A stretch of 64,000 bases of DNA from positions 95,363 through 159,362 of the forward strand of contig JACONH010000012.1 of NCBI GenBank assembly GCA_014323835.1. Direction: 5' to 3'. The stretch is from Alphaproteobacteria bacterium GM202ARS2. GTDB lineage: Bacteria > Pseudomonadota > Alphaproteobacteria > GM7ARS4. The number at the start of each line of letters is the position of its first letter. The stretch's first letter is position 1. This document shows positions 8,828-41,795 of the stretch, piece by piece. The position numbers and the translations under genes were made by a program. Under the pieces are notes generated by a model. It was not told the DNA's origin. It worked only from the letters and a program-made list of their open reading frames with translations, and ran no database searches.

Positions 8828-8881
8828 GCGGATGTGGTGACTTGATATTGTGGTGCTATTGTGGCTAGAGTGTGCTGGTGC

Positions 8882-8955: not shown

Positions 8956-8981
8956 CTTTTTTATTTTTTGCACGAGTCATG

Positions 8982-9010: not shown

Positions 9011-9050
9011 TGGCTATCTGTTTTACTGTCACGTCAAAGGAGATTGACCG

Positions 9051-18000: not shown

Positions 18001-21000
18001 GCACGCCGACGATGGACAACTTGAACCCGACTCGGTATGGGCATGGGCTTATGGACTTAGAGTGTGCCACTCGTGCCAGCTTAACGCAGGAGCGTTGCCG
18101 CACAGCATCAGACGCGCCGTCTGTGTGCTTGGCGAACGGTTTTGGGCATAATGGTTTTATTTGTGTGACCACAGGCATTACGACTGGCGATTGTGGTCGA
18201 GCAGGGGGCTTGCTGTCGGGCACTTCTTGTATTGCCGCGAGTGCCTGCACGGGTGGTATGGTGATTAACGTGGACAATGACGAGTGCGTTTCGTCATGTG
18301 AGACGACAGATGTTATTGGTGCTGGTGGTCGTTTTGCGACCAACAGGTGTTATACGGTGGATACGTGCATTATGGCGGGCGGGGGCTTGTCGGCTATGAG
18401 CAACGGCATGTGTGCCGCGGCGAATGCGCGGACGTGTCATAATGCTGGTGCGGATACGTATTTCTATGATGGCTCGAGCCGATGTGTTACGGATTGTGGC
18501 ATGAACAATGTGGGGCGGGTGAATGGCACGAGCAACTCGTGCATAACGCAGACTATGTGCCGTAGCAATAGTATCAGGGGTGCGGTTGTTGGTGGTGTGT
18601 GTGAGATGGCATCGGCGGACAATTGCTTTGCTGATGGTGGCTTGGGCTTTATGACCAATGAGTGTGTGACGGCATCTGAGGGGACGTGTAGTGAGGAAGC
18701 CAACTATGTCTACGATGGCTCGAGTGCTTGTGTGCCGGGTGCCAATATCAATGTTCGGGTATCGGGCATTGATACGCGGGTAAAGGCTTTGGCGTTGTTT
18801 ACGGGTGACAAGGCAGAGGCAACGGCGTCGGATGCGGTGAAGAACATCCGCACCGAGTATCAGGCACAGCCGTCTTTGGCTCATGTGCATGCCGCGCAAG
18901 CGTATGTCAGCCAAGTGGCAGAAACCGGTGAGACGGTGAGCAATCTGAGTCAGTTGGCTATTGGTAAGGATAGTTTGATTAACGTGATAACCAATCGGCG
19001 TTTTGACCCGACGCACCCTGAGTTCTCGTCCTCTGCCGACGGTGCCGAATACGAGACGTTGACTCGCTTTGAAATCGGCACGGATGATAACGAATTTACC
19101 AGCGATGCGAGGGATATCACTGAGGGAAGCAACAAGATTATCTCGGCAATTTTCAATCAAGATACGGGTGATAATCCGCGGGTTATTTCTTATGAGAACT
19201 GGTTCCAAGCGGGTCGCTCGTTCATATCGGTCAGAGTGCCGCAGATTGATGGTAGGAATTTCGATGAGATTTCTCGTAGTGGTGCGGGCTTTACATCGAC
19301 TGACACTAGCAATCAGGTTGGCTTGGACTTATTGGCGTTCTTCCAGACGATTCTCGGTGGGGACAGAGTTGGCTCTGTGACCTTTGACGGTGACGAAATT
19401 CTTTATAATAGTAACGAAGCCATAGACTTGGTATCGAATACCGACCATGGCACGGCGCGGCGGTTCAATCATATTGGGCGGGTGTATGCGCGCGGTAATG
19501 TTGGTTCGTATCGTGTTTTTGCCACAAGAGTCATCGATGGCGTGCGGCAGAATAATAACAACTATGCGAGCGGTATTCCCAATGAGGCGAATGCGGCTGA
19601 GATGGGCTTGTTAGTGTTGATTAACGGCTTGTTGGATGGTCAAGGGGGCGCGACAAACACGCATGGCATTGCACCGGGGGCGACGTTGAATGTCTTTGCG
19701 ACGCCGACTTTCAGTAGCGGTAATAATGTGGCTGATTGGACTCTGCGGGCCCGTGGCATCGATTTGGGACGTGATAGGGACGGTAGCGGCAATCTGATAG
19801 CGGATAAGACTCGTCATATTGTGTTGATTCAGAATGGCGTTGCCGATTCGGGCACGGGTAATGCGGTGAATCGCAATAGTGTTAATTCGGCAGGAAGAGG
19901 CAGTGGGGCTTATCGTGGTCTTTTGCCTAACTTGCAGTTGGGTGTCAAGGCGCCGGGCTCGGCAACCGCTGAGGAGCTCAGAGCACAAGATATTTATGTG
20001 TTTGCCGCGGCGGATAATCGTAATACGCACAAGGATGTGGGTATTCTTGCCGCGATGCCGTTGGCGACAGAGAATAGCATTAACATCAGTCCGTATTCGG
20101 TTGCGGTGGTGGCTGCTGAGAATGCGGCGAATGCTCATTGTGGTTCGGTGGCGCGTTCCTTCTGTCTGGCGGCACCGGGGTCGTATGCGTATCGCACGAA
20201 AACCGGCGGCTCGTATGGCGGTGGTGATGACACCATTGCGGTTGCCCGTGCGACCTCTAATGCTGCGGCGTCACTGGTTGCGGGTGGCTTTGCTATCCTC
20301 GAAGAGATATTTGGCGACCAGATGGGCAGTCATGATTTGGTGCAGCGGATGCGTTTGACCGCATCCACGTGCTTTAATGTGCAGGGTGCTGCGGGGGATC
20401 CGTGGAATAGTGATACGAACACCTGTGATAACAGCAAGAACGACTATGTTGGTGATTCGGCTAGTCAGCGTCTTGGCTCGGTGCCGGGGGAGAACCGCTT
20501 CGGGCATGGGCTTATGGACTTAGAATGTGCGACAAGAACGGCTCTTGAGCGTGATGGCTGTCGCATAGCGTCTACGGATACCGCGGCGGGTTGCTTGGCG
20601 AACAATCAAGGGTTCAACGGCGTGACTTGCACGGCGACCGGCATTACCGCCGCCGAATGTGTTGAAGCGGGCGGTATTAGGGAAGGCACCATGAATCGTT
20701 GTATTGCGCGCACGGCTTGCACCAGTCCAAGGTTGTTTAACCTTGACAACAATACGTGCGTTGATATGTGTGATCCTGGCGAGGGGCGGGCATCGGGTAG
20801 ACGCTGTGCCGCGGCGAGCGATGAAAACTGTAATAACTTGAGTGTTCGCTATGATGTTGGCAATGATACGTGTCGTGGCGACCAGAACTGTGGGAATAAT
20901 GAATTTCGTGGGGATAGTAACCTTGGGACGAACTCGTGTTATACGGTGGCTTCCTGTGGGAGCAATGGTGGCGGACGAGCCAACGCTGGCTCGGGTCTGT

Positions 21001-24000
21001 GTGTGCCAGCAACGGAAGCGACCTGCTACAATCTTGGTGCGACAACCCGTTACTTGCAGAATGGCGACTGCGTGACCAGTTGCACGGGTGGTGAATTGAC
21101 TCGTTCTATTGCGATGATGAATGTTTGTGTGTCTGATACGAACTGCCGTGGCTCTCGTCAGGGTGCGGTGTCTGGCACCACGTGCATTGCCCCCAGTGCG
21201 ATGGCGTGCAATGATGATGGCATGCGTGCCTTTAACAATGCGATGGATCGGTGTGTGGTTTCGTGCATTGCCAATGATAGCGGACGGGGTCGTGATTCCA
21301 GTCATAACTGTGTTGGGGCAACGGGTGCGTCTTGTCGTCTTGCTGGTGGCAATAGCAATACGATGGGTTTCTTTGATAACAGCGATAGTGCCAACCCCAC
21401 GTGTGTTGCCACTGCGGGCGATTGTAGCGGTAGTCAGTTTGGCGAGACGGATGGCAGTTCGAATACCTGTGTTACCAGCTGCACGAATCTGACGTATGGT
21501 GTCGATGATGATGAAATCTGTGTTATGCCCAGCAACCAAGATCAGTGTGGCAACGCCAATCGTTTCTTACAGGGCGGTATCTGTGTGGCTGCGTGTTCGG
21601 GGACGACCGACATTGTTGGCGGGGCATTGTCGGGCATGGATGCCACCTGTGTTGCTGTCACGGCGTGTATCGCTGGCAATTTGGGTGTTGAGAACGGCGA
21701 GTGTGCGACCGCGAATGCAGGGACGTGTCATGGTGCGGGCGAGAACACGTATTTCTATGATGGCTCGTCCATGTGTGTGTCCGATTGTGGCAACAACAAT
21801 GTTGGCTTGATTGATAGAACCGCTATGCAGAACACCTGTGTGACCGAGACGAATTGCCGCGACACACGTAATGATGCGATTATCGATGGTGTCTGTGTGG
21901 CGGCGAGTGCTCTGACGTGCTTCCAAGATGGCGGTAGGGGCTTTGATGGGACGAGCAGCTGTGTAGATGCGGCGGCGGATACGTGTCTCAGCACGAGTAA
22001 CCTGATGTTTATGAATGGTAGCTGTGTCTCGTCATGCACGGCGGGTCAAGGTTTCCGTGGTGGTAGCTGTGTGGCTTTGACGGGGTTGACGACAGGGCAA
22101 CAGATTGAAGCGTGTTCGAATATTGGGCGTTTGTATGACCCTGTGGATGGCACACCGACGTGTGTGGCGGCTGGCGCGAATTGCAGTGGTGACTTGGTGC
22201 AAGGACGCCGTGAGATTAACGTGAATGGTGTTGTCTCGAATACGCAGTGCATTACGGCAATGGCGTGTGGCGATGCTACGTATGGTGTTGCGAGTAAAGT
22301 GTGTGTCGATGCGGCGGCGGATACGTGTCGTGCTGCGGGTGATTCCACGTATTACTTTGATACGGATGGTGGCTGTGTGACCATGTGTTCTACGGACGAC
22401 CGTCTGTATACGTTGAATAGTGCGACGGCGGGTAACAGCTGTGCGACGGTGGCAGAGTGTCGTGCGGATACGGATACGGGCACTGCGTTGCGTGGGGCGT
22501 GCATGACAGCATCGGTAGAGAACTGCTTTATCGATGGGGGTAGAGGCTTTGATAGTGGTGAGTGTTTGACACCGACGCAGGCGAGTCATTGTGATTCGAA
22601 TGCCAACTTAGTGTGGAATAATGCTGACAACTGCGTCAGCATGGAGCGGGTTAATGTTGCCGTCAGTGGTATTACGTCTCGCCAGCTGGCAGAGGAGATG
22701 TTTACCGGCGATGTCGATGATACCTCAGCTGACATTGTTATCAGGAGCATCCGCCAAGAGTATCAAAATCAGCCGTCACTGGATATTGTGGGTGCCGCGC
22801 AAGCGTATGTTAGCAAAGTGGCAGAAAGCAACGCGGATATTATGAACCTCAGCGAGCTGTCTTTGGGTAAGGATAGTGAGATTAGCGTGATTACCAATGC
22901 TCGTTTTGATCCGAATCACCCTGAGTTTGCCTCTTCCCGTGGCTCGACCTTCGATACGTTGACGCGGGTGAGTGGATTTCGAACTAGTGTCGGTCTTCAG
23001 TTATCCAATATTGTCAATGAATTCTTTGGTGGCGATATGACGGCTACTGGCAGGCGGGCTACTGCTTATACGTTTAGTATAACTGGTCAACGATTTTACT
23101 TTACCCTACCGATAGGGGAAATCGACAGCATGCCTTTTGAAAATCTCGCACGAGATGACGTGACAGCTTCTGGGACGGCTAGAGCAAACCAGATACGTGA
23201 TATCTTGCGTCTGTTGACCGGGAATACAGAGGGCGAGTTTAGTGGTGACCTCAGTTTTAGCGATACGGGTTTCCCAACGGGGACGGCTAGTCGTTTTATT
23301 CAAATTTCTCGGATGGCAGCGGATGGGGTCAACCATGTCGGGCGTATTTATCAGAATAGTAACATTGGCTCGTATCAAATTGTTCTGGGCAGACAAAAAG
23401 TGCGTGAGGCAGACGATAAAGGCGAGTGCATCGGCAACAACAACTGTTATTCCTCATCCGGGGGTGTCCCGTCAGCGGCGAGCGATGCCCAGATGGGTGT
23501 GTTGGCTTTGATTAACGGCTTGTTGGATAGTCGCGGTGGGGCTGAAAACACGCATGGCATTGCTCCTGCGGCAACGTTGCATGTGTTCACCGCGCCTAAG
23601 GTGGGGGCGACAGGGCATAGCAGTGCTGATTTGATTTATCGCGCACGGAGCATCGACCCCGCCCGTGATTTAATGGATGGCACGAACACCATTATTGCCG
23701 ATGACGACCGCAACATTGTTCTTATCCAGAACACCATTGCGGTTACGGCTCGCACGGAAGCGGCGACTGTTGCCAATGTCGGTGATGTTGTTGGCTTGGC
23801 AGGAGCACCGACCACGTTGGATAATGACTACAAGGGGATTTATGATGCGTTGCTCGTGGGTGTTGATGCGGATTCGGCAACGCAGGATGCTTATGTCTTT
23901 GCGGCGGCGGATGGGGCTAGAAGCGATGTTGGTTTGTTGGCGGCGTTGCCGATAGCGACCAACTCGAAGCTGGCTGAGTATTCTATTATTGTGGTTGCGG

Positions 24001-26858
24001 TTGAAGATGGCGAGACCACCTGTGGCAGTGTTGTTGCGGTGCAAAATATATGTATCGCGGCACCGGGTGCATATAACTATCGCACCCGTGAGAACGATGG
24101 GACGTATACGTCCACCACGTTGGCGACAGCAACGACCGCGAATGCCGCCGCGTCATTGGTTGCGGGTGGCTTGGCTCTGTTGGAGTCTATCTTCCCGACT
24201 GAGACGACTGCCAAATTGGTTGACCGACTCTTGTTGACGGCATCGCAGAACTATGACCTCGATAACGACCTGAATATTGACTGGACGGCAGAAAAGCACG
24301 GGCAGGGCTTGTTAGACTTGGCGTGTGCGGTGCGTCCTGCCTTGAACAGCGTATCGTCTCGCACCCGCACGGGTTGCACCGATAGGTTTGGGGTTTCGGG
24401 GGCGGCGGCTTGTTTGGCGAATGGTCAGGGCTGGGATGGCGCGAATTGCGTGACCTCAAGCATTACGGCGATGCAGTGCGTTGCGGCCGGCGGTGTCTTG
24501 CAGGGGACGATGTGTATCAGACGTGATGCCTGTTCGACCTTCTTTAATACTGACGATGATGAGTGTGTCACGTCTTGTGCTACTGGGGAAGGGGCTACGT
24601 CCAGCAGGATGTGCACGGCAACGGGTAGTGTGGGTAATTGTGCCAATGCCTCGCGCTTACTCGATATGGGAACGACCACGTGCGTTACCAGCACTGTTTG
24701 CACCAGTGACCGCAGTAGGATGAATAGTTTTATCAGCTCGGGTTCGTGTGTCTCGATGTGTGCCGCCAATCAGGGCGTGGATAGTAACTTTATGTGCACC
24801 TCAACCAGCATCGATGGCGATGCGTGCGGCAGGGCGGGGCGTTTGCTCGATTTTGGCACGAGCAACTGTATCAGCAATACGATGTGCACCGATAGAAGCA
24901 GTGGTAATCAGTATGTCAATGCGGGTGCGAAGACCTGTAGCACGGGGCGGGATTGTGCCGAGGGACAGGGTATTATCAATGATGCTTGTGCGGATGTTTC
25001 TACTTTGAGTGGCAATGCTCTGACGATGGCTTGTGAAAGGGCGGGTAGAATTGTCGAGAGTGGGGCGTGCGCGGTGGGTGCTGTCGATGAGAATGCGATT
25101 ATCGAAGCCTTCCGTGGCACGGGTAACACTGCGGTGACCAGCGACCTTGCCAGCACCTCAGGCATTACCGATTCGAGTGACACCGATGCCAAACGCCGTT
25201 TGGAGTATGCCAATCAGCCGTCATTGGATATTGTTGGTGCGGCGTTTGCCTATGGTAAGGCGGGCGATGGTGCTGCTGGTATCGATGCCGCTATCGCCAA
25301 GGCTGGTGAGGGAAGCAATATCAGCGTCATTATGCCTCGACGCTTCGACACAACGCATCCTGAGTTCTCATCCTCTGCTACTGGTGTCACCTTCGAAACC
25401 TTGACGCGATTTCAGATTAGAGAATTAAACGACGGTAGTCGTATTATACCCACTCTTGTCTCGACTATCCCGACGTTCTTTACAGGTGATAGCGATGAGC
25501 AGGTGCTCGTTTATAATGACGGTTTTGCTGGTAATATTAGATTTCTGGCGGAGATACAGGTGCCGACCCTCGATGTGGGTGGCACCCCGACGGTGTTTGA
25601 AAGCTTTTCCCGCAATGATATCGACGGCAATAGCGATGCCCGTAACGCGTTGCTGACGTTCTTTAAGACCATCCTAGGCGGAACGGGAGTGCCTGATGTC
25701 GACGCGGTGATGCTTCAGGAGCGAAATAATGGGAAGTATCGCCTTGTGCTTGCACTGGCACAAAATGGTAGGCCTGCATATGTTATATCTTTTACTGATG
25801 ATAATAATTCTCAATTTAATTTCAATCATGTCGGACGTGTTTATGGCAGTGGCAGTAACATTGGCTCACACCGAGTTGTTGCAGATGCTTTACGTAGTAT
25901 TCGCAGTGATGCCGACAAGGGTGAATGTATAGATAAGGCTTGCTACGGTGGGGCACCTGTTTCGGCTAATGGTGCTGTGATGGGTGTGTTGGCTTTGATT
26001 AACGGCTTGATAGACCCGGATAAGGATGGGGTTGCCTACAACACGCACGGCATCGCCCCGGGGGCAACCTTGAATGTGTTCACCAGTAGTGACCGCGTTG
26101 GTGGAGAAGGTGGTTTAGACAATCCTGTTGACCTCGCTTATCAAGCCCGCAACATCGATGTGATACGGGATAGGGATAGTGGTGGCACCTTGGTTGCCGA
26201 TAGCCAGCGTGACATTGTCGTCCTCCATAATTATTTAGTAGATGATACGAGCAGTGAGGCAACCAGCACTGGCTTCAGTAGTGAATTCACTGGTAACGTG
26301 TTGAGTTTCCGCACCGCTCTGGCTTTGGGTGCAGGTGATAGTGTGATGCAAGATGCCTTCATCTTCGCCGCCCGAGATAGTGATGGTGTATCGAACGAAG
26401 GTGGCACTCAGCGGCAAGGTGATTTGGGCGTTGGTTTTGAGGATGATAATGGGGTAGTCACTGATGTTGGGGCATTCTCGGCTCTGCCGGTGTCGGATAC
26501 GGCTACCAAGACGGCTATCGGTGAATTCTCTATCATCGTTGTTGCTGTCGAGGACGGACAGACTCCATGCGGGAGCAACGCCGACGTGCAAGCAATTTGC
26601 ATCGCCGCCCCGGGTGAGTTCCGGTATCGCAACCGTATGAGCGACGGCAACTACGCCACAACCCTATCCACAGCAACCAGTGCCAACGCCGCGGCGTCAC
26701 TGGTGGCAGGTGGCTTGGCTCTGTTAGAGTCTATCTTCCCGACTGAGACCACCGCTCGTTTGATTGATAGGTTGTTGCTCACCGCCGCCAAGGTCTACGA
26801 CTTGGATGAGGATGGTGTCAACGACTACGGCACAGATGCCACCAAGCACGGTGGATGA
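9051..26858 (+). CDS. giant surface protein (5935-aa ORF). It has a lipoprotein-type signal, a Pro/Thr-Asp-Pro-Gly linker, five degenerate subtilase(S8)-like modules and cysteine-rich repeat arrays. The ORF ends prematurely inside a 49-bp tandem duplication.
   Basis: GTG start with an SD. N-terminus MPIRLVLLLSLFVLGGVSSC. Five modules repeat the motifs YANQPSLD-VGAAQAYVS, ISVITNRRFDPSHPEF, NTHGIAPGATLNVFT (like the subtilisin GVAPSASLYAVKV segment), CLAAPGAY-YR (APG box) and ATSNAAASLVAGGFALLEE (like GTSMAAPHVAGAAAL). The modules are separated by dozens of Cys-rich repeats (C..ADTC...YFYDGSSRCVTDCG.GNARRTVGTSN.C). The stop TGA at 26856..26858 lies inside the second copy of the duplication. Confidence 0.7.
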   Translation: MPIRLVLLLSLFVLGGVSSCSSGDSPSSSAWVPPRVVVEGRAGTRPDPGTRPTDPGPTDPGPTDPGVVPPGDPDGTEILVSNDRGTTLRGTQDFQSGQQSPVLMALLEEVEEADTEEEASMSRLESLFGFGSGVTEQQERTRSSFEYANQPSFDKVGAGFAYYDRTRTQPSSGGLSAFQDDGGLLYDRTGAGSSIRYLTDRRFGNFNGTTGRFTDTIGSHPELALSGGEALVRAWSDDITSRVAGALLFDPYVRREERKLLYTYNRLGTLQHHSSAAVRQPRALAIPFLNQGASTTPPADIVAVLFHPDPIPTPPRVNVHGADPSPLTVEDSRIITAFNRETLSSISAGIDDSAYVVARRSVLARIIDSGVPGFDFLVDDNGNPVLVDENGDVVPTDSSGDPLDSNIDINTLDFAYTEDVGYTYGDVFVQTVFAAYDLPWGATAGDFRSVGEEATAEDIGLLALIRGLVNPEDSINLAALRVSSHGIAPGAELGVLTTHGLREVGDCVSIARPTSSATAVGTCDSTGGSDYGEVKAVRGGVNLYDAILRAGAPRGVGRGNIILFDNRLQASGLSMVLATRDITQLPFADNNLWHIESQRAGGFSTDLGDYYTRVSDGTVALRPTLAADNGVKVYEQDGYKAKGTEVTTFDDTTLTPQQIVFAIIDGHYGANTILRSRNDLGADAQRALRLLLGMRHSLQRNDDSVVEDYDALIFAAQEQGGDIGLFAGLPLQVDLLVDARRAAAEADFALALRDGLSERDILQRAFAAGHRYDAGRQTLRTEITVDNVDGEPIAFHRRVFHRVPPALNDDLNNSQVSLTSFEFLEGSNQLRVVFSNGNSYTIERGLNEQGVANDFPEGQGHYYYAAAREVLFKVAGARTWVFHAVPQWLVDGLDSSASFEFVDNRNEVRVTLSDGRVHVLDVPTDLETPLPYYLAVVAAESGATPCGVVAQDFCLAAPGAYTYRDPGSDEAYDEDDTLETTTATARAAASLVAGGFALLQEVFDGQLNTAELVARIKQTASQNFDLDGDGNNDYTQMDGGAERYGHGLLDLECATRASLDRSRCRPATTETREFSPQACLLQGRGVNVAGDGCASASRSACRALALQGAVFDSANSRCVSETGCLGVQGRVIDFEVGECLTDARACPADRPNVADGRCSQRISAEICANSGRFLLEESSSGSAFLTEANRGFRCVDSCPAFQGVRDGNVCVGDTARCGPDGRGSRTVPGDDPGVSRCVSSLDDSFTEDTCSAAGRFVSSTGDACVARCAAGEFVGVAMGGTLPVTCMSTCPSRGVRDSTDNCISRSACVGSGVVSSDNRQCFTDGDDCPAGYGVYKNQCTSRVINDDSCSEASRFVGADRRTCVASCEGGQFVGAGSLGANTCYSVDLCQAAGGGREAINSGDCVTATALSCYNLGSVTYLYNGMRGAEAACVDTCASGEVRQMSGSANQCLSQLGCRELSLVVGQGAEQDLCVAASAIGCARDGGRGFENGACVAASASTCDTKGISFVDGECRSCLRSQGLVGSECRNIDTLPTTAEQITACAALDRLYDPASTARCVATASQCSDNRVQGVSGLTVNGVAADTQCVAVSECIMGGFGLGTNVCAPAAADTCYSADSARYFYDGSSRCVTDCGAGNARRTVGTSNDCPSEMMCRDTSSRAVNNGVCVVADSDTCRADGSRVFSTNKCVANARACINETGDLGYDSTTNSCVMATSPTECLAAGNAFFDGTDRCLAECAAGQGSDTNRECMAVTAANGNVVCGNASRRFDVMADACKSSNTCDVGEFLGDASFGANSCYTVEGCVMASGGRSVSTGVCVGAAADTCRAAGVSTYYFDSARGCVTACDMGGLTVRRALGSGNRCLTPAECRSLPHTGPDRGAVLAGDCVIATANTCAGDDNGGLGFRNGICIEASSTSCDTTMGIQFSNGRCMACNAGQGFVSGSGCTDITTLGTAAAQVDACAAAARLYDPASTVTCVATANDCTQNRIQGRSVVMVNNRPSNSQCISIAECGAGMSGVDTGRNRCVAGTAVTCKAVTSSTHYFDGDDGCVTSCSGVADMRTVTRAITGGNECVTADNCRGMAHTGSVRGAVQNSNNCVVANGNNCAFDDSRAFNGAMTGCVESCIVDDGGRGRSALGQCEAASPASCYRDFQSSADGFYDANASGGARCIEFPNQCANGAFGSSRSLMNECVADCPSSGQGVNSNNICSGVGGLNATERVTNCIRAERIVEGNACTETCSSGTPYYNGTDTCVDAAGCVAINRGVATNAASRFGRQIATAGSCATASAASCHTAGSSTYFFNSGARRCVSDCGAGNARRTVGTNNTCIAETACRNATNRGAVVGGMCVAASADTCFADGGMGFGSGRCVTASATTCNEDLNYVFDADDRACVLGSFVDVALPATITTRADALALFTGDPAEAAAADEVKNIRTEYQAQPSLAQVGAAQAYVSRVPNSGATINNLSQLTIGKGSQISVITNRRFDPSHPEFSSAVTGTDAVDYETLTRFYISVSGRLLNDDFSSATAGAHVFLNRYFSGDSGESPRTVFYTSGYSPFGNFEAYFSARIGQITNMNFDAISRTDTSFDGTTSNPVGVGLLGVFSPLLGGSAVDVTPSFDGFEITYDSSQRVIIVDTASDDDENFNHVGRIYAEGEGNLGSYQIVVTSDTVVRQDNNTYGSDVPDEADAEEMGLLVLINGMLDGAGGATNTHGIAPGATLNVFTSPRVGANRHNSVDLIYRARGIDIARDRDNNGNLIADPVRNIVLIQNTLAHSERNNAVTVANVNDVVGASGSNIADSYKEIYEALQLGVKAPVQGSVTADEKQQDIYVFAAADSRSAQNGVGLLAALPASTSGTSLMPYSVAVVAAEDAASAFCGVTANDFCLAAPGAYKYRDDGADNAYGGSDDTLETASATSNAAASLVAGGFAILEELFGDQLGSDQLVARMLATASQCFNINGGGAEAWNSATGRCENARNDYVGDRGTPTMDNLNPTRYGHGLMDLECATRASLTQERCRTASDAPSVCLANGFGHNGFICVTTGITTGDCGRAGGLLSGTSCIAASACTGGMVINVDNDECVSSCETTDVIGAGGRFATNRCYTVDTCIMAGGGLSAMSNGMCAAANARTCHNAGADTYFYDGSSRCVTDCGMNNVGRVNGTSNSCITQTMCRSNSIRGAVVGGVCEMASADNCFADGGLGFMTNECVTASEGTCSEEANYVYDGSSACVPGANINVRVSGIDTRVKALALFTGDKAEATASDAVKNIRTEYQAQPSLAHVHAAQAYVSQVAETGETVSNLSQLAIGKDSLINVITNRRFDPTHPEFSSSADGAEYETLTRFEIGTDDNEFTSDARDITEGSNKIISAIFNQDTGDNPRVISYENWFQAGRSFISVRVPQIDGRNFDEISRSGAGFTSTDTSNQVGLDLLAFFQTILGGDRVGSVTFDGDEILYNSNEAIDLVSNTDHGTARRFNHIGRVYARGNVGSYRVFATRVIDGVRQNNNNYASGIPNEANAAEMGLLVLINGLLDGQGGATNTHGIAPGATLNVFATPTFSSGNNVADWTLRARGIDLGRDRDGSGNLIADKTRHIVLIQNGVADSGTGNAVNRNSVNSAGRGSGAYRGLLPNLQLGVKAPGSATAEELRAQDIYVFAAADNRNTHKDVGILAAMPLATENSINISPYSVAVVAAENAANAHCGSVARSFCLAAPGSYAYRTKTGGSYGGGDDTIAVARATSNAAASLVAGGFAILEEIFGDQMGSHDLVQRMRLTASTCFNVQGAAGDPWNSDTNTCDNSKNDYVGDSASQRLGSVPGENRFGHGLMDLECATRTALERDGCRIASTDTAAGCLANNQGFNGVTCTATGITAAECVEAGGIREGTMNRCIARTACTSPRLFNLDNNTCVDMCDPGEGRASGRRCAAASDENCNNLSVRYDVGNDTCRGDQNCGNNEFRGDSNLGTNSCYTVASCGSNGGGRANAGSGLCVPATEATCYNLGATTRYLQNGDCVTSCTGGELTRSIAMMNVCVSDTNCRGSRQGAVSGTTCIAPSAMACNDDGMRAFNNAMDRCVVSCIANDSGRGRDSSHNCVGATGASCRLAGGNSNTMGFFDNSDSANPTCVATAGDCSGSQFGETDGSSNTCVTSCTNLTYGVDDDEICVMPSNQDQCGNANRFLQGGICVAACSGTTDIVGGALSGMDATCVAVTACIAGNLGVENGECATANAGTCHGAGENTYFYDGSSMCVSDCGNNNVGLIDRTAMQNTCVTETNCRDTRNDAIIDGVCVAASALTCFQDGGRGFDGTSSCVDAAADTCLSTSNLMFMNGSCVSSCTAGQGFRGGSCVALTGLTTGQQIEACSNIGRLYDPVDGTPTCVAAGANCSGDLVQGRREINVNGVVSNTQCITAMACGDATYGVASKVCVDAAADTCRAAGDSTYYFDTDGGCVTMCSTDDRLYTLNSATAGNSCATVAECRADTDTGTALRGACMTASVENCFIDGGRGFDSGECLTPTQASHCDSNANLVWNNADNCVSMERVNVAVSGITSRQLAEEMFTGDVDDTSADIVIRSIRQEYQNQPSLDIVGAAQAYVSKVAESNADIMNLSELSLGKDSEISVITNARFDPNHPEFASSRGSTFDTLTRVSGFRTSVGLQLSNIVNEFFGGDMTATGRRATAYTFSITGQRFYFTLPIGEIDSMPFENLARDDVTASGTARANQIRDILRLLTGNTEGEFSGDLSFSDTGFPTGTASRFIQISRMAADGVNHVGRIYQNSNIGSYQIVLGRQKVREADDKGECIGNNNCYSSSGGVPSAASDAQMGVLALINGLLDSRGGAENTHGIAPAATLHVFTAPKVGATGHSSADLIYRARSIDPARDLMDGTNTIIADDDRNIVLIQNTIAVTARTEAATVANVGDVVGLAGAPTTLDNDYKGIYDALLVGVDADSATQDAYVFAAADGARSDVGLLAALPIATNSKLAEYSIIVVAVEDGETTCGSVVAVQNICIAAPGAYNYRTRENDGTYTSTTLATATTANAAASLVAGGLALLESIFPTETTAKLVDRLLLTASQNYDLDNDLNIDWTAEKHGQGLLDLACAVRPALNSVSSRTRTGCTDRFGVSGAAACLANGQGWDGANCVTSSITAMQCVAAGGVLQGTMCIRRDACSTFFNTDDDECVTSCATGEGATSSRMCTATGSVGNCANASRLLDMGTTTCVTSTVCTSDRSRMNSFISSGSCVSMCAANQGVDSNFMCTSTSIDGDACGRAGRLLDFGTSNCISNTMCTDRSSGNQYVNAGAKTCSTGRDCAEGQGIINDACADVSTLSGNALTMACERAGRIVESGACAVGAVDENAIIEAFRGTGNTAVTSDLASTSGITDSSDTDAKRRLEYANQPSLDIVGAAFAYGKAGDGAAGIDAAIAKAGEGSNISVIMPRRFDTTHPEFSSSATGVTFETLTRFQIRELNDGSRIIPTLVSTIPTFFTGDSDEQVLVYNDGFAGNIRFLAEIQVPTLDVGGTPTVFESFSRNDIDGNSDARNALLTFFKTILGGTGVPDVDAVMLQERNNGKYRLVLALAQNGRPAYVISFTDDNNSQFNFNHVGRVYGSGSNIGSHRVVADALRSIRSDADKGECIDKACYGGAPVSANGAVMGVLALINGLIDPDKDGVAYNTHGIAPGATLNVFTSSDRVGGEGGLDNPVDLAYQARNIDVIRDRDSGGTLVADSQRDIVVLHNYLVDDTSSEATSTGFSSEFTGNVLSFRTALALGAGDSVMQDAFIFAARDSDGVSNEGGTQRQGDLGVGFEDDNGVVTDVGAFSALPVSDTATKTAIGEFSIIVVAVEDGQTPCGSNADVQAICIAAPGEFRYRNRMSDGNYATTLSTATSANAAASLVAGGLALLESIFPTETTARLIDRLLLTAAKVYDLDEDGVNDYGTDATKHGG

Positions 26859-26901
26859 GGATGGTGTCAACGACTACGGCACAGATGCCACCAAGCACGG
26901 A
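26804..26901 (+). repeat. perfect tandem duplication, 2 x 49 bp (TGGATGAGGATGGTGTCAACGACTACGGCACAGATGCCACCAAGCACGG)
   Basis: Read directly: 26804..26852 is identical to 26853..26901. 49 is not divisible by 3, so the second copy shifts the frame and provides the TGA stop of the upstream ORF. Confidence 0.95.
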
Positions 26902-28497
26902 CAAGGGCTGATGGACTTGGCGTGTGCCATACGCCCGACCCTCGCCACGGGCGACTTGGTGCGCACCGGTTGCACAGACCGTCATCCTCTCGTTTCCCAG
27001 AACGCGCCGCCCTCACAATCCTCAGGACAAAACGCCCCGCCCGCAGCCCAAGAGGAACAAGAACACAGCGAGGATGGGGAACGCACCGAAGCGACCCCCG
27101 CTGAGGTTAACACCGTGGACTACTGCGATATTGACGGCTTGCGGATTATCTTGTCGGGTGACTTGTGCTCAGATGATTACCTGACCCTCGTAGACAAAGA
27201 CGGCAACGTCAATGGCGCGCTGATTGGTAACTTGCGTTTTGGTATGGGCTTTGGCGACTCGTTGTTGCAGGGTATCGGTATCACCTTCTTCGATGCCTTC
27301 GATACCGCTTGGACGGTGGACAATCCCTATAACCCGTATGCGCATCTGTTGAACTTTGGCAATATTGTCATCGCCCCCGCCGAATCCCGCTTCGATGTTG
27401 AAGATAGGTTCTATGCTATGCGTTATGGCACGCGTCCGGGCACGCGCAAAACATGGAACAGCGATACGGCTCGTATCACTTTCGACTTTGCTACGCAAGG
27501 CATGGCGACCAAGCCTTATGCGGTCACCCGTGGGCAAATCCGCAACACCATTACGCACGACAACATTGGGGCTGACCCCTATGCCGATGTCCGCTTTATG
27601 CTCTCTGCTGAGGATTCGTTGGGTGTTGGGCTTGGACGCCTGAAAGTCATGACGTATTCGGGCATGGCGATGGGCTATGCGTTGGGCTTGCATGCACAGG
27701 GCGATGCCATGATGCCGAGTTACTTGCTGACGAATCGTGACTCGTTCCATGCCCCGTATCTGTCTCTGGCGAGCAGTGGCTTAGGTGGCGGTATGACCTA
27801 TCGCTTCCGTGATGGCGGGCATATTGGTTTTGTGATGGGCGAAGGCACGAGCTTAAACGCTGATGGCACACTGCCGTATCAGCAACAGACGTCTCGTCCG
27901 CGGGCTTTCGCGGGTATGATGGAATATGCCCCGCACCGTAACTTGATGTTCCATGCGGGTGCGTTGCAAGAACAGAGCACGCTGTTGGCATCGCAAGGCT
28001 CAGGCTTGTTTGATATTCAGGGTGGCACAACCACCTTCGTTGGCGTGCAAGCCAAACAGCCGTTGACTGATAACTGGCAGGCGTTGGTCAGTGGCTATGG
28101 CGGACGCACGCAGCTTGCGGGGTCGGGCGGTATTGTGTCGGGCTTGGATGTGATGACGTCTTCGTTTGATGTGGGCTTGCTTGGCTCGCATGTCTTGGAG
28201 AAAGGCGACCATCTGTTGTTCCGTGCGGGACAACCGATGAAGGTCGAGTCGGGCTCGCTGGACTTGTCTTATGTGTCGTTCCGCCGTCAGGATAGGTCGG
28301 CAGTCAGTCATACGCAGAGCTTCGATGTTGCCCCGTCCATGCGGTCGGTGGAGTTCGGGGTGGGCTATGGTATGCCCATTGGCTTGAATGGCAGACAAGG
28401 CCACATGCGTTTTGCTATAGACTACGTGCTGAATCCGGGACACCGACGGGTGCGTGATGAGGTCTTTGGCATCATGTCATTCCGCCGCGAATTTTAG
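26853..28497 (+). pseudogene. out-of-frame 3' continuation of the giant gene (linker + autotransporter-like beta-domain), separated from 9051..26858 by the 49-bp duplication frameshift
   Basis: A different frame from copy 2 onward reads DEDGVNDYGTDATKHGQGLMDLACAIRP...FRREF*, colinear with the C-terminus of the downstream paralog (...NQHGQGLMDLECAVRP...FRREF). The C-terminal aromatic residue and alternating beta-strand pattern suggest an outer-membrane beta-barrel. The ATG at 26764 in the ORF track is not a real start. Confidence 0.65.
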
Positions 28498-28508
28498 GGG
28501 AGGGCACC

Positions 28509-31500
28509 ATGAACACATCAACAACACACACTGCAACAACGCAAACTGGGAGAAAAACAACCATGACACTGCTTACTGGCTTTTGTAACACCCTTCGTAA
28601 CATAGGTATAGCCGTCTTTGTGCTTCTTGTTGGAGCCTGCGATTCAGGGACGGAATTCTCGCCGAGTCGAGAAGTCCCCTTCGCACGGTCAGGCGGTAGC
28701 GGCGGTGTCACGCCCACAGACCCGACAACGCCCACAGACCCGGGCACGACAGACCCGGGGACAGTAGACCCATCTCGGGGTGGTCTGGTTGCTGCGTCCA
28801 TTTGTGCGACACCGTATGAGGGCTTGCCGCAGGGCATGACCGAAGCCTCGCAGTGTGTGCGTTTGAACGCGCCAAGCCTCGATGAGAACGGCAACATTGT
28901 GACCAATAGAGATGGCACAGAAGTGCCGCGTTACCGTGATGATGGCATTAGTAGGGAATCGCTGTGCTATCGTGCGGGGCGTAATGACGAACCGCTGGTG
29001 TATGATCACAGCACGGTATCGTGTGTGCGTGCTTTTCAGGGCTGTCCTGATGGGCAGGGAGTCATCCAAGCCCTTGGCAATAACGAGCAAAGTGGCTTGG
29101 GTCGCCGTTGTAGTGGACAAACGCCTGAGAACATTCAGACAATCAGCACGGTGGTTGTGGGTATTGCCAGTGGCGATGATGCGGATGCTCGTCAAGGCAA
29201 GATAGACGCTGCCATTACGGCGGAGCGCATGGCTAATCCTGATGTTGATTTGATTAATGTTGTTGAGGTTTTTTATGACAGCACCGATGATGGCACTGCG
29301 CAAGCGAACAAGCTGCAGGCTGTAACCAACAAAGTCAATGGTGCTCCTCTTGTAGATGGTGAGGCTCGTTTTATCTTCCGCACTGTTGCGGTGGGCATCG
29401 AGCCGACCGACACGCCAGCAGAGCGACTTGCGAAAGTCAAAGCGGCAATCACGGCAGAGCGTGCAACGTTGCCAAGCGGCGGCGGGGGTGAGACGGCTCT
29501 TAATGCCAATTCGATTATTAATGTCATTGAGGTCTTTTACGATGACGGTGACAGCGATGCCGAGAAAGAACGCAAAGTGGCTGAGGCTATGCGGGACGAG
29601 GCACAAGGCAATCGATTCGAGCACCAGCTTTTGTTTGTGACGGTTGCGGTGGGCATCGAGCCTGATGACACGCAGGCGATGCGTGAGGACAAAATCAGGG
29701 ATGCGATTAATGCGCGCCGTGCCGAGGTGCCGAATGCTCTTGCGATTGTAGCGGTGCCGGTTTTCCACGAGGCGGACGACACCGATGACGAGAAAAATGC
29801 AGCTTTAGCTGCGGCTTTGGCGGAAGCGGTGCGGGGTGACAATCAAGAGGCGACTGCGTTGCGGAAAAAATATGGCTCGTATACGGCTGATATGTGTAGC
29901 GCGGGCGGGCGTTTGTTGACGGTGCGAGGCACGGGTGCGGATGCTTTGACGGGGACGGGTTGCACGAATTTGTGTGCGGACGGCACGTTTGTTGGTGATG
30001 GCGGCGGGTCGCGCAGTGCTGGTATTTGTTATAATGATGTTGCGTGCACCGCGAGTGGCGGCGGACGAGCCGAACGTGGCAGTGGTGCGTGCATCGCGGC
30101 ATCGCCTGAATCCTGTTATGGAGTTAGTCGTGCGGGCAGTGAAGGTGTTGCCGCTGTATCGTATTTCTTTACGAATAGTCGGTGTATCCACAATGGCTGT
30201 ATCGATGATATATCGTTGGTGCGGGCGACCAGTGCGACTCGTGGCACGAGTACGTGTACGACTGTGCGGGAATGTTATAATCAACATGGCAGAACGTTGA
30301 CGGGTAATCGTTGTGTTGCGAGTTCTCGGTTGTGTTTGCGGCGCGGTGGGCGGGGCTTTGATGGCGATAGGTGTGTGGCAGCGAGCGAAGACTCCTGTGG
30401 CGGTGGCTTGGCGTTCTATTATGAGGGGCAGTGCCTCAGGGCGACATGTGGCGAGAGGAATGAAATCCCTGATGCCAGACGTTTCGATAAGTGCATCAGC
30501 GAGGCGAACTGCACAAGTGACCGCAGCGCGGCGTTGGCACAAAGCGGTGAAATCTGTGTCAGCAAGCAACAGGGCTGTCCGACAGGGCAGGGTGTCAATG
30601 GGGAGAGATGCACCGAGACGGTGAATGCGGCGACGTGTGCGGATGCTGGGCGATTCGTTGATGTGCGTGGCGGTGGTGGGGCGCGCTGTTTTAATACGTG
30701 TGCGGGACGTGAGGTTATTGCGGGGAACGTCTGTTTGGTGGATACGTGTGCCGCGGATGAGGTGTATAGCCCAACGAGTTTCCAGTGTGTCGATATTGAT
30801 AGCGATGCTGATACCGCGGCGACGCAGTGTCAAGCGGTGGGGCTGGTGGCGAATGTCGCCAATAGCCGTTGTGTCGAGCGATGCTCGGGCAATACGAGAA
30901 TCGCCACGACTGGCACGCCGCGCTGTGTGACGGATGTGACCCGCAGCAGTTGTCTGTCTAATAATCAGGCTTTTGATAGGGCGACGGGTGAATGTGTTAC
31001 GGCAGACCTTGATACGTGTGCGGCGACGGGTGCGTTCTATGATGGCTCGGCTTGTGTTGAGTTTGGCAACAATGCGACGATGATAACCACGATACGTGGA
31101 ACGGATGACGCTGCCGCGGATGGCGTCGATGGCAAGCAATCAGCGGCTTTGGCGGCGTTGCGGGAGGCGATTGCCGCGGTTGATGATGCCGATATTGGTA
31201 GCACACAGGACGTAACCACAACAGTGGATGATGATGACGACCCTAATACGCCTGAAGTCCCTATGGATTTCTTTGGCAATGGGGCGGATTTGTTGTTGTT
31301 GCAGGCTTCCGCCAGCGATACCCCAACCCGAACCATGCTGTTGAATCGTTTGCGAGTGGCGTATGCCAATCAGCCGTCCCTCGACCAAGTGGGTGCGGTG
31401 TTCGCGCACCATGTGGGTGACTCGGGGCGGACGTATGGCTTTGGCTCGACGGTGTCGTATTTTGCCCCGATTCCGACAAGCGACCGAGAGGGTAGCGACC

Positions 31501-34500
31501 AAGGCTTACTCGACCTGATTAGCGGCGGCGGTGATGTCTCGGATGCGGCGGTGACCCTAGGAGAAAACTTTAACTTTGGTGGCATCAAGACCCTGCGTCA
31601 TTCTATCGCCCCAGAAGCAACCCTGAATGTTGTCAATACGGCAGGTATGGCATTACAACGGGATTCAAGTGGTCTCAGAGCTATTGTTAGCAGATCTGGG
31701 ACGAGAACGACAGCAGGAAGTGAAAGTTCCTTGAGATCGCTTATAGACAGGGATGAGTTTGTGGTTCAGCTACAGGATACTAACGTGTATCGTCATATTA
31801 CAGGTGCCGGGGCACCAGCATGGCAGACTCGCGGCAATGTCATTCTCTTCGATAACCGCATGGCTGCCGATAAAGATATACACACTGTCTTCGCGGCGCG
31901 GGCAGCCAACTATTTTGAAGGGTTGACGACCGATACCAATGCCGATGCCATCGACCCCATTGGTTTTAGGAATAGCGTCTGGCGTCTCGATGCTCGTGGT
32001 GGTGCTACTTTAGCGACTTCCAGCTTTACTCGTGACCTTGACGCCTACTTCTATGCACCGGGCACACAAAGCCCGGCTTTCGCCAATGTTAGATACGATA
32101 ATCTTTATATCGATCAGCCTAGGGGGAATAATGAGGTTTACACATTGCCCGGCGGCTTTTTCACTAGGCCCCCGCCCCTCGGCGGCACGTTTCCTCATCG
32201 TCCGCAGGGAGAGCAGTTAAGGAATCTCGTCATCGAAGGGCTGTATGGCACTGGCACACGGCTTTATCCGACTACTCGTGGGCGAGAGACGAGGCTCAGA
32301 TTAGTCGTTAATACCCTTAACGCCCGAACAGACACATACAAAATGGTGGACACATTTAGGCGTTTTGACAACAACGAGCTCAATGTGATTGATGCCATTA
32401 TTGACCTGATGAGACAGCGGGCGGCGACTCCCGATGTTGAGATGGATGCTTTGATTTTTGCTGCTGATGATGAAGCCAGCGATATTGGTTTGTTTGCGGG
32501 TTTACCGATTTATATCGACCGTATCCGTGCGACTCGCGATAGTGGCATTGACTCGCCGTTGCCTTACTATCTGGCGGTGGTGGCTGCTGAGGAAGGTGCG
32601 TGTGGGTGGACGGCGCGGGACTTCTGCATTACGGCACCGGGTTCGTATACGTATGCCGCCAGTGGTGCAACCTCGCTATCGACGGCGACCAGTGCCAACG
32701 CCGCGGCGGCGTTGGTGGCGGGTGGCGTTGCCCTGTTGCAAGAGATCTTTGACGGGCAGTTGGGGACGGCAGAAATCATTGCTCGTTTGAAGGCGACGGC
32801 TTCGCAGAACTTCGATGTGGACGACGATGGCAGTAATGACTATGTCGGCAATGAGGATATTCCCGATGCCGATGATGTCCGTGCCGGGCAGCGTCGTTTT
32901 GGGCATGGCTTGTTGGATTTGGCGTGTGCGACTCGTGCCAGTTTAACGCAGAGGCGTTGTCGCACCATTACGGTGAACAACGTGCTGTCGGATGACGCGC
33001 AAGCGTGTCTGAGGGCGAGGCAGGGCTTTGATGGCTCGGCTTGTATTACGTCTCCGGTCAGCCAAGCGGATTGTGACCTTTTGAATGCAACATTTTCCAA
33101 TGGTCAGTGCATGGCACCGAGAGCCCCTCGGGTTGTGCGTGGTAACCGTCAAACGTGTCTGTCGTCGGGGCGGGGCTTTGATGGCACGAACTGCATTGCT
33201 ATCCCTGTCGTGCAGGAGCATTGTGACCCGCTGAATGCGATATTGGCTAGGGGTAATCGTTGTGTTGCGCCGGGTGGTGCTCCTGCGGTTATTCTTGGCA
33301 ATCGCGACAGCGAAGCCGATGTTGTGGCTCTGTTCGAAACGTCCGCACCGTCCTTTAGTGCGGGGGTGACGAACGTACAGAGACTCGCACGGGAATATCA
33401 GAATCAGCCGAGTTTCCGCACCATTGGCGTTGCCGATGCTTATGCCCGCGGTTCCGAGCGCGTCACTTATGGTAGCAGAACCGACAGATTGATGTTGCAT
33501 GATTTGAATCTGGGACAGGGGGCGCGGATAAGTTATATCACCAACTCGCGCTTTGACCCGAGTCATCCTGAGTTCACCCGGGATGCTTATGTCACCGCTG
33601 AGAACAACCACGTCAGAACTGTGCAGGTGATAGACCCTGTTACGATGATGCCTATGATGGAGACGGTGATAGACCCGGATACGATGACGGAAGTGACACG
33701 AGTCGTAACTCGAGACATCATCACCGAGCTGAGCAAGACGTATGGGGCAGAAAGCAACATTGCTCACCATGGGATTCATATCGAAACTGCCTTTTTGACA
33801 CCGAGGGAAGGTGAGCCTGATATTAGCACGCTTATTGGTGGCATTGATGCGGCGGATATGGGTGTGATGGCGTTGATTAATGGGCTTGTCAATCCGTCGG
33901 GGAGCACCGATGCGGCGACTTATGCCAGCAATACCCATGGTGTTGCACCGGGGGCGCGCTTGGAGGTGTTTACGATACCGCACTTAGGCTTCTATTCGCA
34001 TGGCGCCTTCCGTGTGAATGAACAGACGTTGGTGCGTAGGGCTCGTGGTGCTGATCCTTCGGGTAATAACAATAATTTCCGTAACATTGTTGTGTTTAGT
34101 AACGAGATGATTAGAGAGGAGGCTGAGATTCATCCAGTGACCATGAGGAATCTTATTGAGGTGGTGGACGATAGAACAGACGGCAGGTTCGGTTCGACCG
34201 GGCATATTCCTCTTACAAACCCAGAAGGCGGAGACCCAAGAGATACAGTCGTCGGCTACGATACGACATTTAGAACTTTGGTTGAGAACGTCCGTGCCCC
34301 GCATCGAACTCGCAGTGACATACGGCAAGCCCAAGATATATACGTGTTTGCGGCGTTGGATGGTCGTGGCGATACTCGTGATAGTTCGGGTATCAAGGCG
34401 GGTTTCAATGATGCCGGTTTATTTGCCTCGCTGGTAGCGGCATCGCGTCCTAACAATGACGATGGCACGTTGGGTCGGGCGGTTTTTGCCGATTATAGTC

Positions 34501-38654: not shown

Positions 38655-38657
38655 GGT

Positions 38658-39404: not shown

Positions 39405-39410
39405 AAAGAG

Positions 39411-39740: not shown

Positions 39741-39821
39741 ACGTTTGTAAAAGGGTTGCCATCGTTGCGATAATCAACCATATTACACGTAGGGGGCAAC
39801 GTAACCTAGGGAGCTATCGAC

Positions 39822-40556: not shown

Positions 40557-40572
40557 GCTACCCCCCCCCACC

Positions 40573-41760: not shown

Positions 41761-41795
41761 CCCCGCAATTCACCCCACCCTAGCACATAATCACA

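What the first reader, a model, noticed from the sequence alone, without database searches (positions are those of the whole stretch)
26804..26901. Perfect 49-bp tandem duplication frameshifts the giant gene just before its beta-domain
Read directly: 26804..26852 and 26853..26901 are identical (TGGATGAGGATGGTGTCAACGACTACGGCACAGATGCCACCAAGCACGG). The second copy introduces the TGA at 26856..26858 and a +1 shift. Deleting one copy reads through as …LDEDGVNDYGTDATKHGQGLMDLACAIRP…, exactly as in the paralog (…NQHGQGLMDLECAVRP…). It would fuse the 5935-aa ORF to the 26853..28497 linker and beta-barrel. A passenger without its translocator domain could not be surface-displayed. This is either recent pseudogenisation, an ON/OFF switch by duplication and deletion of a 49-bp unit, or an assembly or sequencing artefact in a repetitive gene.
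Basis: seen in the sequence. Interest (0 to 1): 0.75.

Follow-up and report, generated by a model that had tools for sequence, protein, structure and literature searches.

The report
49-bp duplication at an assembly join
The perfect 49-bp duplication that splits a giant surface-protein gene of a sponge symbiont sits exactly where two assembly contigs were joined, and another assembly of the same strain has only one copy, so it is most likely an assembly error and not biology.

Summary
It places a TGA at 26856..26858. Removing one copy fuses the 5935-aa ORF to the downstream frame, giving 6465 aa that align with the paralog and with relatives.

The window is a metagenome-assembled genome, Alphaproteobacteria bacterium GM202ARS2, a sponge symbiont built from IDBA-UD scaffolds of short reads.

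A second assembly of the same strain (JGI metagenome 3300017829) is 100% identical over the 43 kb read. It breaks exactly here:
- One contig ends at window 26851, the last base of copy 1.
- The next contig starts at 26753 and carries a single copy.
- The two overlap by 99 nt, which is k-1 for IDBA-UD's k=100.
- The window equals contig A plus contig B without its first 50 bases.

So an intact single-copy allele exists. The two-copy form is seen only at a scaffold join, made by an assembler known for local errors at joins.

Best reading: a join artefact (about 0.7). The main rival is a real two-copy allele co-existing with the intact one (about 0.25). A fixed pseudogene is essentially excluded. 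Only reads can settle it.

The C-terminal domain is predicted with high confidence to be an outer-membrane beta-barrel. It resembles porins more than classical autotransporter barrels.

The parts
26803..26851 (+). copy 1 of the 49-bp unit; its last base is also the last base of JGI contig Ga0189853_1000050
   Evidence: contig end computed (record = window + 21883; contig length 48734 gives window 26851; last gene 5933 aa running off the end)
26852..26900 (+). copy 2 of the 49-bp unit, the extra copy; absent from JGI contig Ga0189853_1000053
26856..26858 (+). TGA stop created in the passenger frame by copy 2
26753..26851 (+). 99-nt stretch shared by the end of JGI contig A and the start of JGI contig B (k-1 for k=100); the de Bruijn branch vertex
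9051..26858 (+). 5935-aa ORF as deposited (NCBI MBC6444927.1, GDA50_05755). It has a lipoprotein-type signal (read by eye), five subtilase-like modules with substituted catalytic residues, and Cys-rich spacers
26812..28497 (+). 561-aa CDS as annotated by NCBI (MBC6444928.1, GDA50_05760). It is the shifted-frame remainder, holding the linker and the C-terminal barrel, and has no signal peptide of its own
27589..28494 (+). predicted outer-membrane beta-barrel domain (302 aa modelled)
28509..38654 (+). intact tandem paralog (3381 aa; 3363 aa as called by JGI) with the same C-terminal architecture; used as the single-copy reference

Best explanation
The second 49-bp copy is most likely a scaffold-join error in the IDBA-UD assembly of this metagenome-assembled genome, and the organism most likely carries an intact 6465-aa gene. 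Shown: in another assembly of the same strain, the graph breaks immediately after window 26851. Contig A ends there. Contig B starts 99 nt upstream (26753) and continues with one copy of the unit into the right flank. The deposited scaffold equals A followed by B minus its first 50 bases, not minus its first 99. That leaves the last 49 bases of the overlap written twice. Inferred: the scaffolder joined the two overlapping contigs using a paired-end distance estimate of about -50 where the true overlap was -99. My recollection of IDBA's path-assembly code is that it trims by the estimated distance without checking the overlap. This was not verified here. If the reading is right, the frameshift, the stop codon and the two separate NCBI CDSs all follow from the error.
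For: (1) Source: P0002 and P0017 are 100% matches to NCBI proteins of MAG 'Alphaproteobacteria bacterium GM202ARS2'. The paper and its supplement give Illumina 2x100/2x150 reads, IDBA-UD v1.1.1 and scaffolds. (2) JGI contig Ga0189853_1000053 starts at window 26753 and has one copy: L003[1..99] = window 26753..26851, and L003[100..] = window 26901..48654 at 100%. (3) JGI contig Ga0189853_1000050 ends at window 26851. Where it was read, it shows no mismatch to the window. (4) The overlap is exactly 99 nt, and the window after 26851 equals contig B from base 51. (5) A boundary landing on the exact last base of copy 1 by chance has odds of about 1 in 10^4-10^5. (6) An idealised de Bruijn simulation: dup-only reads never yield the single-copy path, so single-copy molecules exist. 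A full mixture would also break contig B at the unit start, which is not seen. A short two-copy dead end would normally be clipped. So the branch that caused the break is probably something other than the two-copy allele. (7) Chen et al. 2020 (PMC7111523) report local assembly errors as 'particularly prominent in IDBA-UD', including duplicate sequence at scaffold joins despite overlap. They counted 13 local errors in one 1.1-Mb genome. (8) Perfect identity and zero microhomology at the borders fit a blind join better than replication slippage. (9) It is the only perfect tandem duplication of period 20-120 in the window or in the JGI loci read (L002-L005), and it is at the only contig join inside the window.
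Against: No reads were available, so the absence of reads across the novel junction CACGG|TGGATG is not shown. A pure single-copy population gives no break at k>=60 in the ideal simulation. Something in the reads therefore diverges right after 26851, and a real two-copy allele would explain that with one event. No exact repeat longer than 23 nt of this region exists elsewhere in the window to explain the break. I could not confirm that JGI 3300017829 is an IDBA-UD assembly of the same reads; it is not listed in the paper. I could not inspect other joins of the deposited scaffold to see whether they carry similar errors. The account of how IDBA trims negative distances is from memory.
Confidence: 0.7

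Rival explanations
1. Real polymorphism. Part of the symbiont population carries a very recent 49-bp tandem duplication that separates the passenger from its barrel (OFF), alongside cells with the intact single-copy gene (ON). The mixture caused the graph branch after 26851. The first assembly kept the single-copy path, and the final scaffold took the two-copy path. A perfect tandem repeat is lost precisely at high frequency, so the allele would be reversible, as with the duplications in pneumococcal capsule genes.
For: One event explains both the break and the deposited sequence. In the simulation, a mixture puts the upstream contig end at 26851 and the start of the single-copy branch at 26753, exactly as observed. 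De Bruijn assemblers cannot invent junction k-mers from single-copy reads. There is no other obvious cause for a k=100 branch here. The gene encodes a giant surface protein of a host-associated bacterium with a small genome (1.83 Mb), and it has an intact paralog directly downstream. Both features would make loss tolerable. A precedent exists: Waite et al. 2001 and 2003, cited in PMC4022640.
Against: Contig B runs unbroken from 26753 through the point where the two-copy path would have to rejoin. So in that assembly the two-copy path was absent or incomplete while the single-copy path was complete. For the final scaffold to carry two copies from the same reads, the relative support would have to invert. 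The borders show no microhomology, which is unusual for slippage-type duplications. The two-copy form is seen only in an IDBA-UD scaffold, exactly at a join.
Confidence: 0.25
2. Fixed recent pseudogenisation. All cells carry two copies and the gene is dead, as part of genome reduction in an obligate symbiont.
For: The deposited genome shows two copies, and NCBI annotates two separate CDSs. The genome is small and host-restricted. Both reading frames are otherwise intact, as expected for a very recent event.
Against: The JGI contig contains the 100-mer made of left flank, one unit and right flank. Two-copy molecules cannot produce that at any k used. So single-copy molecules exist in a sample carrying the same strain at 100% identity.
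Confidence: 0.03
3. Programmed recoding. The ribosome shifts frame within or before copy 2, so a full-length protein with a 16-residue insert is made from the two-copy gene.
For: The downstream frame is open from 26764, so a +1 shift anywhere in 26764..26855 would restore a full-length product.
Against: No slippery motif or stimulatory element was seen around GGT GGA TGA (read directly). Relatives and paralogs all encode the junction in one frame with one copy. Two perfectly identical copies do not look like an evolved recoding site.
Confidence: 0.01

Closest known systems
Local assembly or scaffold-join errors in IDBA-UD metagenome assemblies (Chen, Anantharaman, Shaiber, Eren and Banfield 2020, Genome Res, PMC7111523)
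   Same: IDBA-UD scaffolds from short reads. The anomaly sits exactly at a contig end where the neighbouring contigs overlap perfectly by k-1. Overlap sequence is written twice, and a protein-coding gene is corrupted as a result.
   Different: The case described in that paper has Ns between the duplicated ends. Here there are no Ns, and only 49 of the 99 overlapping bases are repeated. Lack of read support, the defining test, could not be run.
Phase variation by spontaneous tandem duplication and precise excision in Streptococcus pneumoniae capsule genes cap3A, cap8E and tts (Waite et al. 2001 Mol Microbiol; 2003 Microbiology; cited in PMC4022640)
   Same: A perfect tandem duplication inside an ORF causes a frameshift and loss of a surface structure. 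The change is reversible in principle by loss of one copy.
   Different: In the pneumococcus, both states were isolated and switching was measured. Here the two-copy state is known only from one scaffold join. Organism and gene class also differ.
Lipoprotein subtilase autotransporters NalP (Neisseria meningitidis) and SphB1 (Bordetella pertussis), type Va secretion
   Same: An N-terminal lipoprotein-type signal (by eye), subtilase-fold passenger modules and a C-terminal outer-membrane beta-barrel ending in Phe. Distant homologues of 750-950 aa pair a complete Peptidase_S8 domain with this same C-terminal domain.

Membership tests
Assembler join artefact (local assembly error) | The anomaly coincides with a contig end or overlap in the assembly graph | tested here: met
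   JGI contig A ends at window 26851 and contig B starts at 26753. The overlap is 99 nt, and the window equals A plus B[51..].
Assembler join artefact (local assembly error) | Another assembly of the same strain lacks the anomaly | tested here: met
   L003 has one copy and is otherwise 100% identical over 21.8 kb.
Assembler join artefact (local assembly error) | No single read supports the junction sequence | not testable with these tools
The diagnostic junction 30-mer is TGCCACCAAGCACGGTGGATGAGGATGGTG.
Assembler join artefact (local assembly error) | Other joins of the same scaffold show similar small duplications or deletions | not testable with these tools
   The deposited contig could not be retrieved outside the window. 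Only one join lies inside the window.
Tandem-duplication phase variation (pneumococcal capsule type) | A perfect in-ORF tandem duplication, not a multiple of 3, abolishes the product | tested here: met
   49 bp, +1 shift, TGA at 26856..26858. This holds for the deposited sequence only.
Tandem-duplication phase variation (pneumococcal capsule type) | Both states co-exist in one population | tested here: inconclusive
   The single-copy state is shown by the JGI contig. The two-copy state is seen only at a scaffold join. The simulation is compatible with a mixture only in part.
Tandem-duplication phase variation (pneumococcal capsule type) | Precise excision restores function at measurable frequency | not testable with these tools
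   This needs culture or time-series sequencing, and the organism is uncultured.
Classical autotransporter (type Va) beta-domain, PF03797 | Sequence match to the Autotransporter family model | tested here: not met
   No Pfam or NCBIfam hit for the C-terminal 531 aa, none in Pfam for the last 365 aa even at E<=10, and no PDB sequence hit.
Classical autotransporter (type Va) beta-domain, PF03797 | A 12-stranded barrel with the passenger linker helix in the pore | tested here: inconclusive
Outer-membrane beta-barrel protein | An all-beta closed barrel at the C-terminus, ending in an aromatic residue | tested here: met
   Searches returned only OM barrels as neighbours. The sequence ends ...GIMSFRREF.
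Peptidase S8 (active subtilase) | Asp-His-Ser catalytic triad plus oxyanion Asn | tested here: not met
   In six modules, the columns of BPN' D32/H64/N155/S221 hold N or P / Y or a gap (pM2) / D / N or D. Single-module homologues P0047, P0056, P0060, P0061 and P0083 keep D/H/N/S. Pfam S8 hits are only partial and weak.

The most novel reading that the evidence does not exclude
The two-copy allele is real and co-exists with the intact allele in the sponge. An uncultured symbiont would then switch surface display of a 6465-aa protein off and on by gain and precise loss of a 49-bp tandem unit. This would be a natural-population example of duplication-based phase variation outside the pneumococcus, and it would have been caught by the assembly-graph break it causes.
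Probability: 0.12. Interest if true: 0.5.

Novelty: not a real feature. Interest (0 to 1): 0.15.

Why it matters
If it is an artefact, the practical consequence is a correction. GenBank entries MBC6444927.1 (5935 aa) and MBC6444928.1 (561 aa) are two halves of one 6465-aa gene, and any pseudogene count or secretion inference for this genome should not use them as they stand. It also gives a simple check: compare a suspicious perfect duplication with contig ends in another assembly. If the allele is real, it would show reversible inactivation of a giant surface protein in a host-restricted symbiont. That would be of moderate interest and is already known in principle. Separately, the gene family deserves a look: a lipoprotein-type signal, arrays of catalytically dead subtilase modules, Cys-rich spacers and a porin-like C-terminal barrel that has no Pfam model but 566 relatives.

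Tried and rejected
- Two scans of genome contigs found nothing (peptide patterns from the fused C-terminus; an exact 37-mer from just beyond the window). The genome is not in that collection.
- Two scans of metagenome contigs found nothing (a 43-mer of the unit; peptide patterns), although the JGI contigs exist. They were reached through exact-protein look-ups instead.
- I tried to read the deposited scaffold at another JGI contig end, to see whether other joins carry errors. The chain was citrate synthase, then the alanine:cation symporter, then its cluster member P0022. Only the JGI contig is on record there, so the test could not be done.
- P0002 is not on record for a contig look-up. The 5933/5935-aa product exceeds the 5000-residue limit.
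- An internal repeat as the cause of the contig break is rejected. The longest exact match of 26500..27100 elsewhere in the window is 23 nt.
- Low-k loop collapse as the source of the single-copy contig is rejected. Dup-only input never yields a path of left flank, one unit and right flank.
- Programmed frameshifting is rejected. There is no slippery site, and relatives have a single copy.
- Pfam, NCBIfam and PDB sequence searches of the barrel and of an S8-like module gave nothing useful.
- Logan read-level assemblies of the sample did not appear among homologues.

Full report
**1. The observation**

The window contains a perfect head-to-tail duplication of the 49-bp unit TGGATGAGGATGGTGTCAACGACTACGGCACAGATGCCACCAAGCACGG. 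TRF reports 2.0 copies, 100% matches and score 196.

- Direct comparison gives 26803..26851 = 26852..26900.
- There is no further copy on either strand. No other perfect tandem duplication with a period of 20-120 exists in the window.
- The borders share no microhomology (…CTACGACT|unit|unit|ACAAGGG…).
- The 5935-aa ORF from 9051 ends at the TGA at 26856..26858, inside copy 2.
- Removing one copy gives a single ORF of 6465 aa ending at 28497.
- That fused protein aligns collinearly through the junction with the tandem paralog at 28509..38654: 61% identity over 1075 residues, near-identical in the last ~430.
- A third paralog (P0016) and relatives from other metagenomes (P0001, P0004, P0005) all read …KHGQGLMDLACA… with one copy.

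So single copy is the ancestral, functional state.

**2. Where the sequence comes from**

The downstream product and the 5935-aa product are exact matches to NCBI proteins MBC6444928.1 and MBC6444927.1. These belong to "MAG: Alphaproteobacteria bacterium GM202ARS2", on a 196,147-bp contig.

The source paper is Podell et al. 2020 (PMC7313196). It describes a 1.83-Mb, 49-scaffold, 85%-complete population genome of a candidate order (Ca. Methylospongiales) from the sponge Lamellodysidea herbacea. The data were Illumina 2x100 or 2x150 reads. A preliminary IDBA-UD assembly with default parameters was followed by a targeted re-assembly, and scaffolds were used. The supplement lists idba-ud v1.1.1 as the assembler for this genome.

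The window is chromosomal. It carries purB, the isc operon and polA.

**3. The decisive finding**

Exact-protein look-ups led to JGI metagenome 3300017829, which holds the same strain.

- **Contig B.** Ga0189853_1000053 (47,508 bp) starts at window 26753. Its first 99 bases equal window 26753..26851, which is 50 bases of left flank plus one unit. Base 100 onward equals window 26901..48654 with no mismatch. It therefore carries a single copy.
- **Contig A.** Ga0189853_1000050 (48,734 bp) carries purB at record position 28010, which is window 6127. The contig therefore ends at window 26851, the last base of copy 1. Its last gene is a 5933-residue product running off the end, which agrees. The 17.4 kb of it that overlap the window show no mismatch.
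- **Overlap.** The two contigs overlap by exactly 99 nt. That is k-1 for k=100, IDBA-UD's default maximum. The deposited sequence equals contig A followed by contig B from its base 51.

A contig boundary falling by chance on the exact end of copy 1 has odds of roughly 1 in 10^4-10^5. The duplication and the assembly break are therefore causally linked.

**4. Which way the causation runs**

I simulated error-free de Bruijn graphs for one-copy, two-copy and mixed input.

- For k>=60, neither pure population gives a break.
- Two-copy input never yields the path of left flank, one unit and right flank. The JGI contig therefore proves that single-copy molecules exist. This excludes a fixed pseudogene, unless the JGI sample is a different one.
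- A mixture puts the upstream contig end at 26851 and the start of the single-copy branch at 26753, as observed.
- A mixture also requires the downstream contig to start at the unit, because the two-copy path rejoins there. Contig B instead runs unbroken from 26753 for 47.5 kb.
- An incomplete two-copy branch would be a dead end under 200 nt, which assemblers normally clip. A and B would then merge.

Under idealised behaviour, then, the branch that caused the break is probably something other than the two-copy allele, for example a strain variant. For the final scaffold to carry two copies from the same reads, the support for the two paths would also have to invert between rounds.

The alternative is that the scaffolder joined A and B using a paired-end distance estimate of about -50 where the true overlap was -99. 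That explains the product exactly. It also explains the perfect identity and the absence of microhomology. My recollection that IDBA trims negative distances blindly is from memory and unverified.

The error class itself is documented. Chen et al. [quoted passage not shown] They describe duplicate sequence at scaffold joins despite overlap, and wrong repeat numbers. They found 13 such errors in one 1.1-Mb genome.

Points in favour of a real allele:
- A real two-copy allele explains the break and the sequence with one event.
- De Bruijn graphs cannot invent junction k-mers.
- No repeat longer than 23 nt elsewhere in the window explains the branch.

My weighting:

| Reading | Probability |
|---|---|
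| Join artefact | ~0.7 |
| Real allele co-existing with the intact one | ~0.25 |
| Fixed pseudogene or programmed recoding | a few percent together |

**5. What the gene is**

- **Signal.** The fused protein begins with a lipoprotein-type signal (…LGGVSSC; the paralog has …LVGAC; read by eye).
- **Modules.** It has five subtilase-like modules, each ending GxGL(L/M)DL at residues 1045, 2997, 3818, 5084 and 5934, separated by Cys-rich regions (257 Cys in all). The paralog has three modules.
- **Weak S8 signal.** Pfam sees only partial, weak Peptidase_S8 matches.
- **Catalytic residues.** They are probably inactive.
- **Barrel relatives.** The C-terminal ~270 residues have no Pfam, NCBIfam or PDB sequence match. 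They do have 566 relatives (E<=1e-3) in the 1.84-billion-protein library. These typically sit at the extreme C-terminus of 750-950-aa proteins. Seven of the ten relatives scanned with Pfam have a complete Peptidase_S8 domain in the N-terminal part.

Its role as translocator for the passenger is an inference by analogy with NalP and SphB1-type subtilase autotransporters. Membership in the classical autotransporter family was tested and not met.

**6. Consequence if the two-copy allele were real**

The 5935-aa product would keep its signal and be exported, but it would lack the barrel. The 561-aa remainder has no signal peptide. Surface display would be lost, if the barrel does work as in type V secretion. 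A perfect 49-bp tandem repeat is lost precisely at high frequency, so the state would be reversible. The known analogue is capsule phase variation in pneumococci by spontaneous in-ORF duplications (Waite et al. 2001, 2003; references seen in PMC4022640). Nothing suggests an evolved switch. There is no microhomology to promote re-duplication and no repeat tract.

**7. Verdict**

- The most likely explanation is a scaffold-join artefact, so the feature is probably not real and interest is low.
- At a minimum, an intact allele exists in the sample.
- Counting reads across the junction 30-mer TGCCACCAAGCACGGTGGATGAGGATGGTG would settle the matter.

Noticed in passing
window 9051..26851 and 28509..38654: The giant protein and its paralog carry five and three subtilase-like modules. 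In all six modules tested, the catalytic Asp/His/Asn/Ser positions are replaced by N or P / Y or a gap (pM2) / D / N or D. Single-module distant homologues keep the triad. The modules are separated by Cys-rich spacers (257 Cys in 6465 aa). This looks like an array of dead-protease modules used as a surface scaffold or adhesin.
   Followed up: partly
window 27589..28494 (also 37746..38651): The C-terminal ~270-aa domain has no Pfam, NCBIfam or PDB sequence match but has 566 relatives. These are typically the last domain of 750-950-aa proteins, and 7 of the 10 relatives scanned carry a complete Peptidase_S8 domain. It is predicted with pLDDT 89.8 to be an outer-membrane barrel closer to 14-16-stranded porins than to 12-stranded autotransporter barrels. 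It may be an undescribed type-V-like secretion domain family.
   Followed up: partly
window 59673..59999: A 101-bp unit repeated 3.2 times (89% matches), AT-rich, in the gene-free gap between maf and infA. Each unit contains the 16-bp perfect palindrome TGTTTCACGTGAAACA.
   Followed up: no
window 2907..2932: A second perfect tandem duplication, 13 bp x 2 (TGCAACGTGGGGG), lying between ORFs of 150 aa or more. Unlike the 49-bp one, it is inside JGI contig A and present there too (no mismatch), so it is reproducible between assemblies.
   Followed up: partly
window 38658..39404: A 248-aa ORF directly after the paralog contains an HExxH motif (MHEFVHRLQ). It has no NCBIfam match, and JGI records no Pfam hit for it. 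It may be an unknown metalloprotease associated with the giant proteins.
   Followed up: no
L001 (ENA ERZ25068803 ctg7488l) 1..13618; proteins P0004, P0005: In related organisms, the region upstream of the homologous gene (P0001) is called as a run of short ORFs (207, 198, 149, 184, 461, 244 and 1205 aa). P0004 and P0005 end in out-of-frame tails. This is either real decay of these genes in relatives or indel errors of a long-read assembly.
   Followed up: no
L006 1..24 (end of JGI contig Ga0189853_1000053, about 10.3 kb beyond the window end): The JGI contig ends in a 12-bp unit repeated twice (CCCCCACCTATG CCCCCACCTATG), 154 nt upstream of the alanine:cation symporter gene. A short tandem repeat probably caused that contig break.
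   Followed up: no
window 9207..9248: A 15-bp repeat x 2.8 encodes PTDPG repeats just after the lipoprotein-type signal of the giant protein. The paralog has a similar Pro/Thr/Asp-rich stretch. It is probably a flexible tether.
   Followed up: no
L002 10001..13861 (JGI Ga0189853_1000162; NCBI MBC6445175.1): A third paralog (P0016, 1286 aa) has one subtilase-like module and the same barrel. It lies on another contig of the same genome, next to a patatin-like gene.
   Followed up: no
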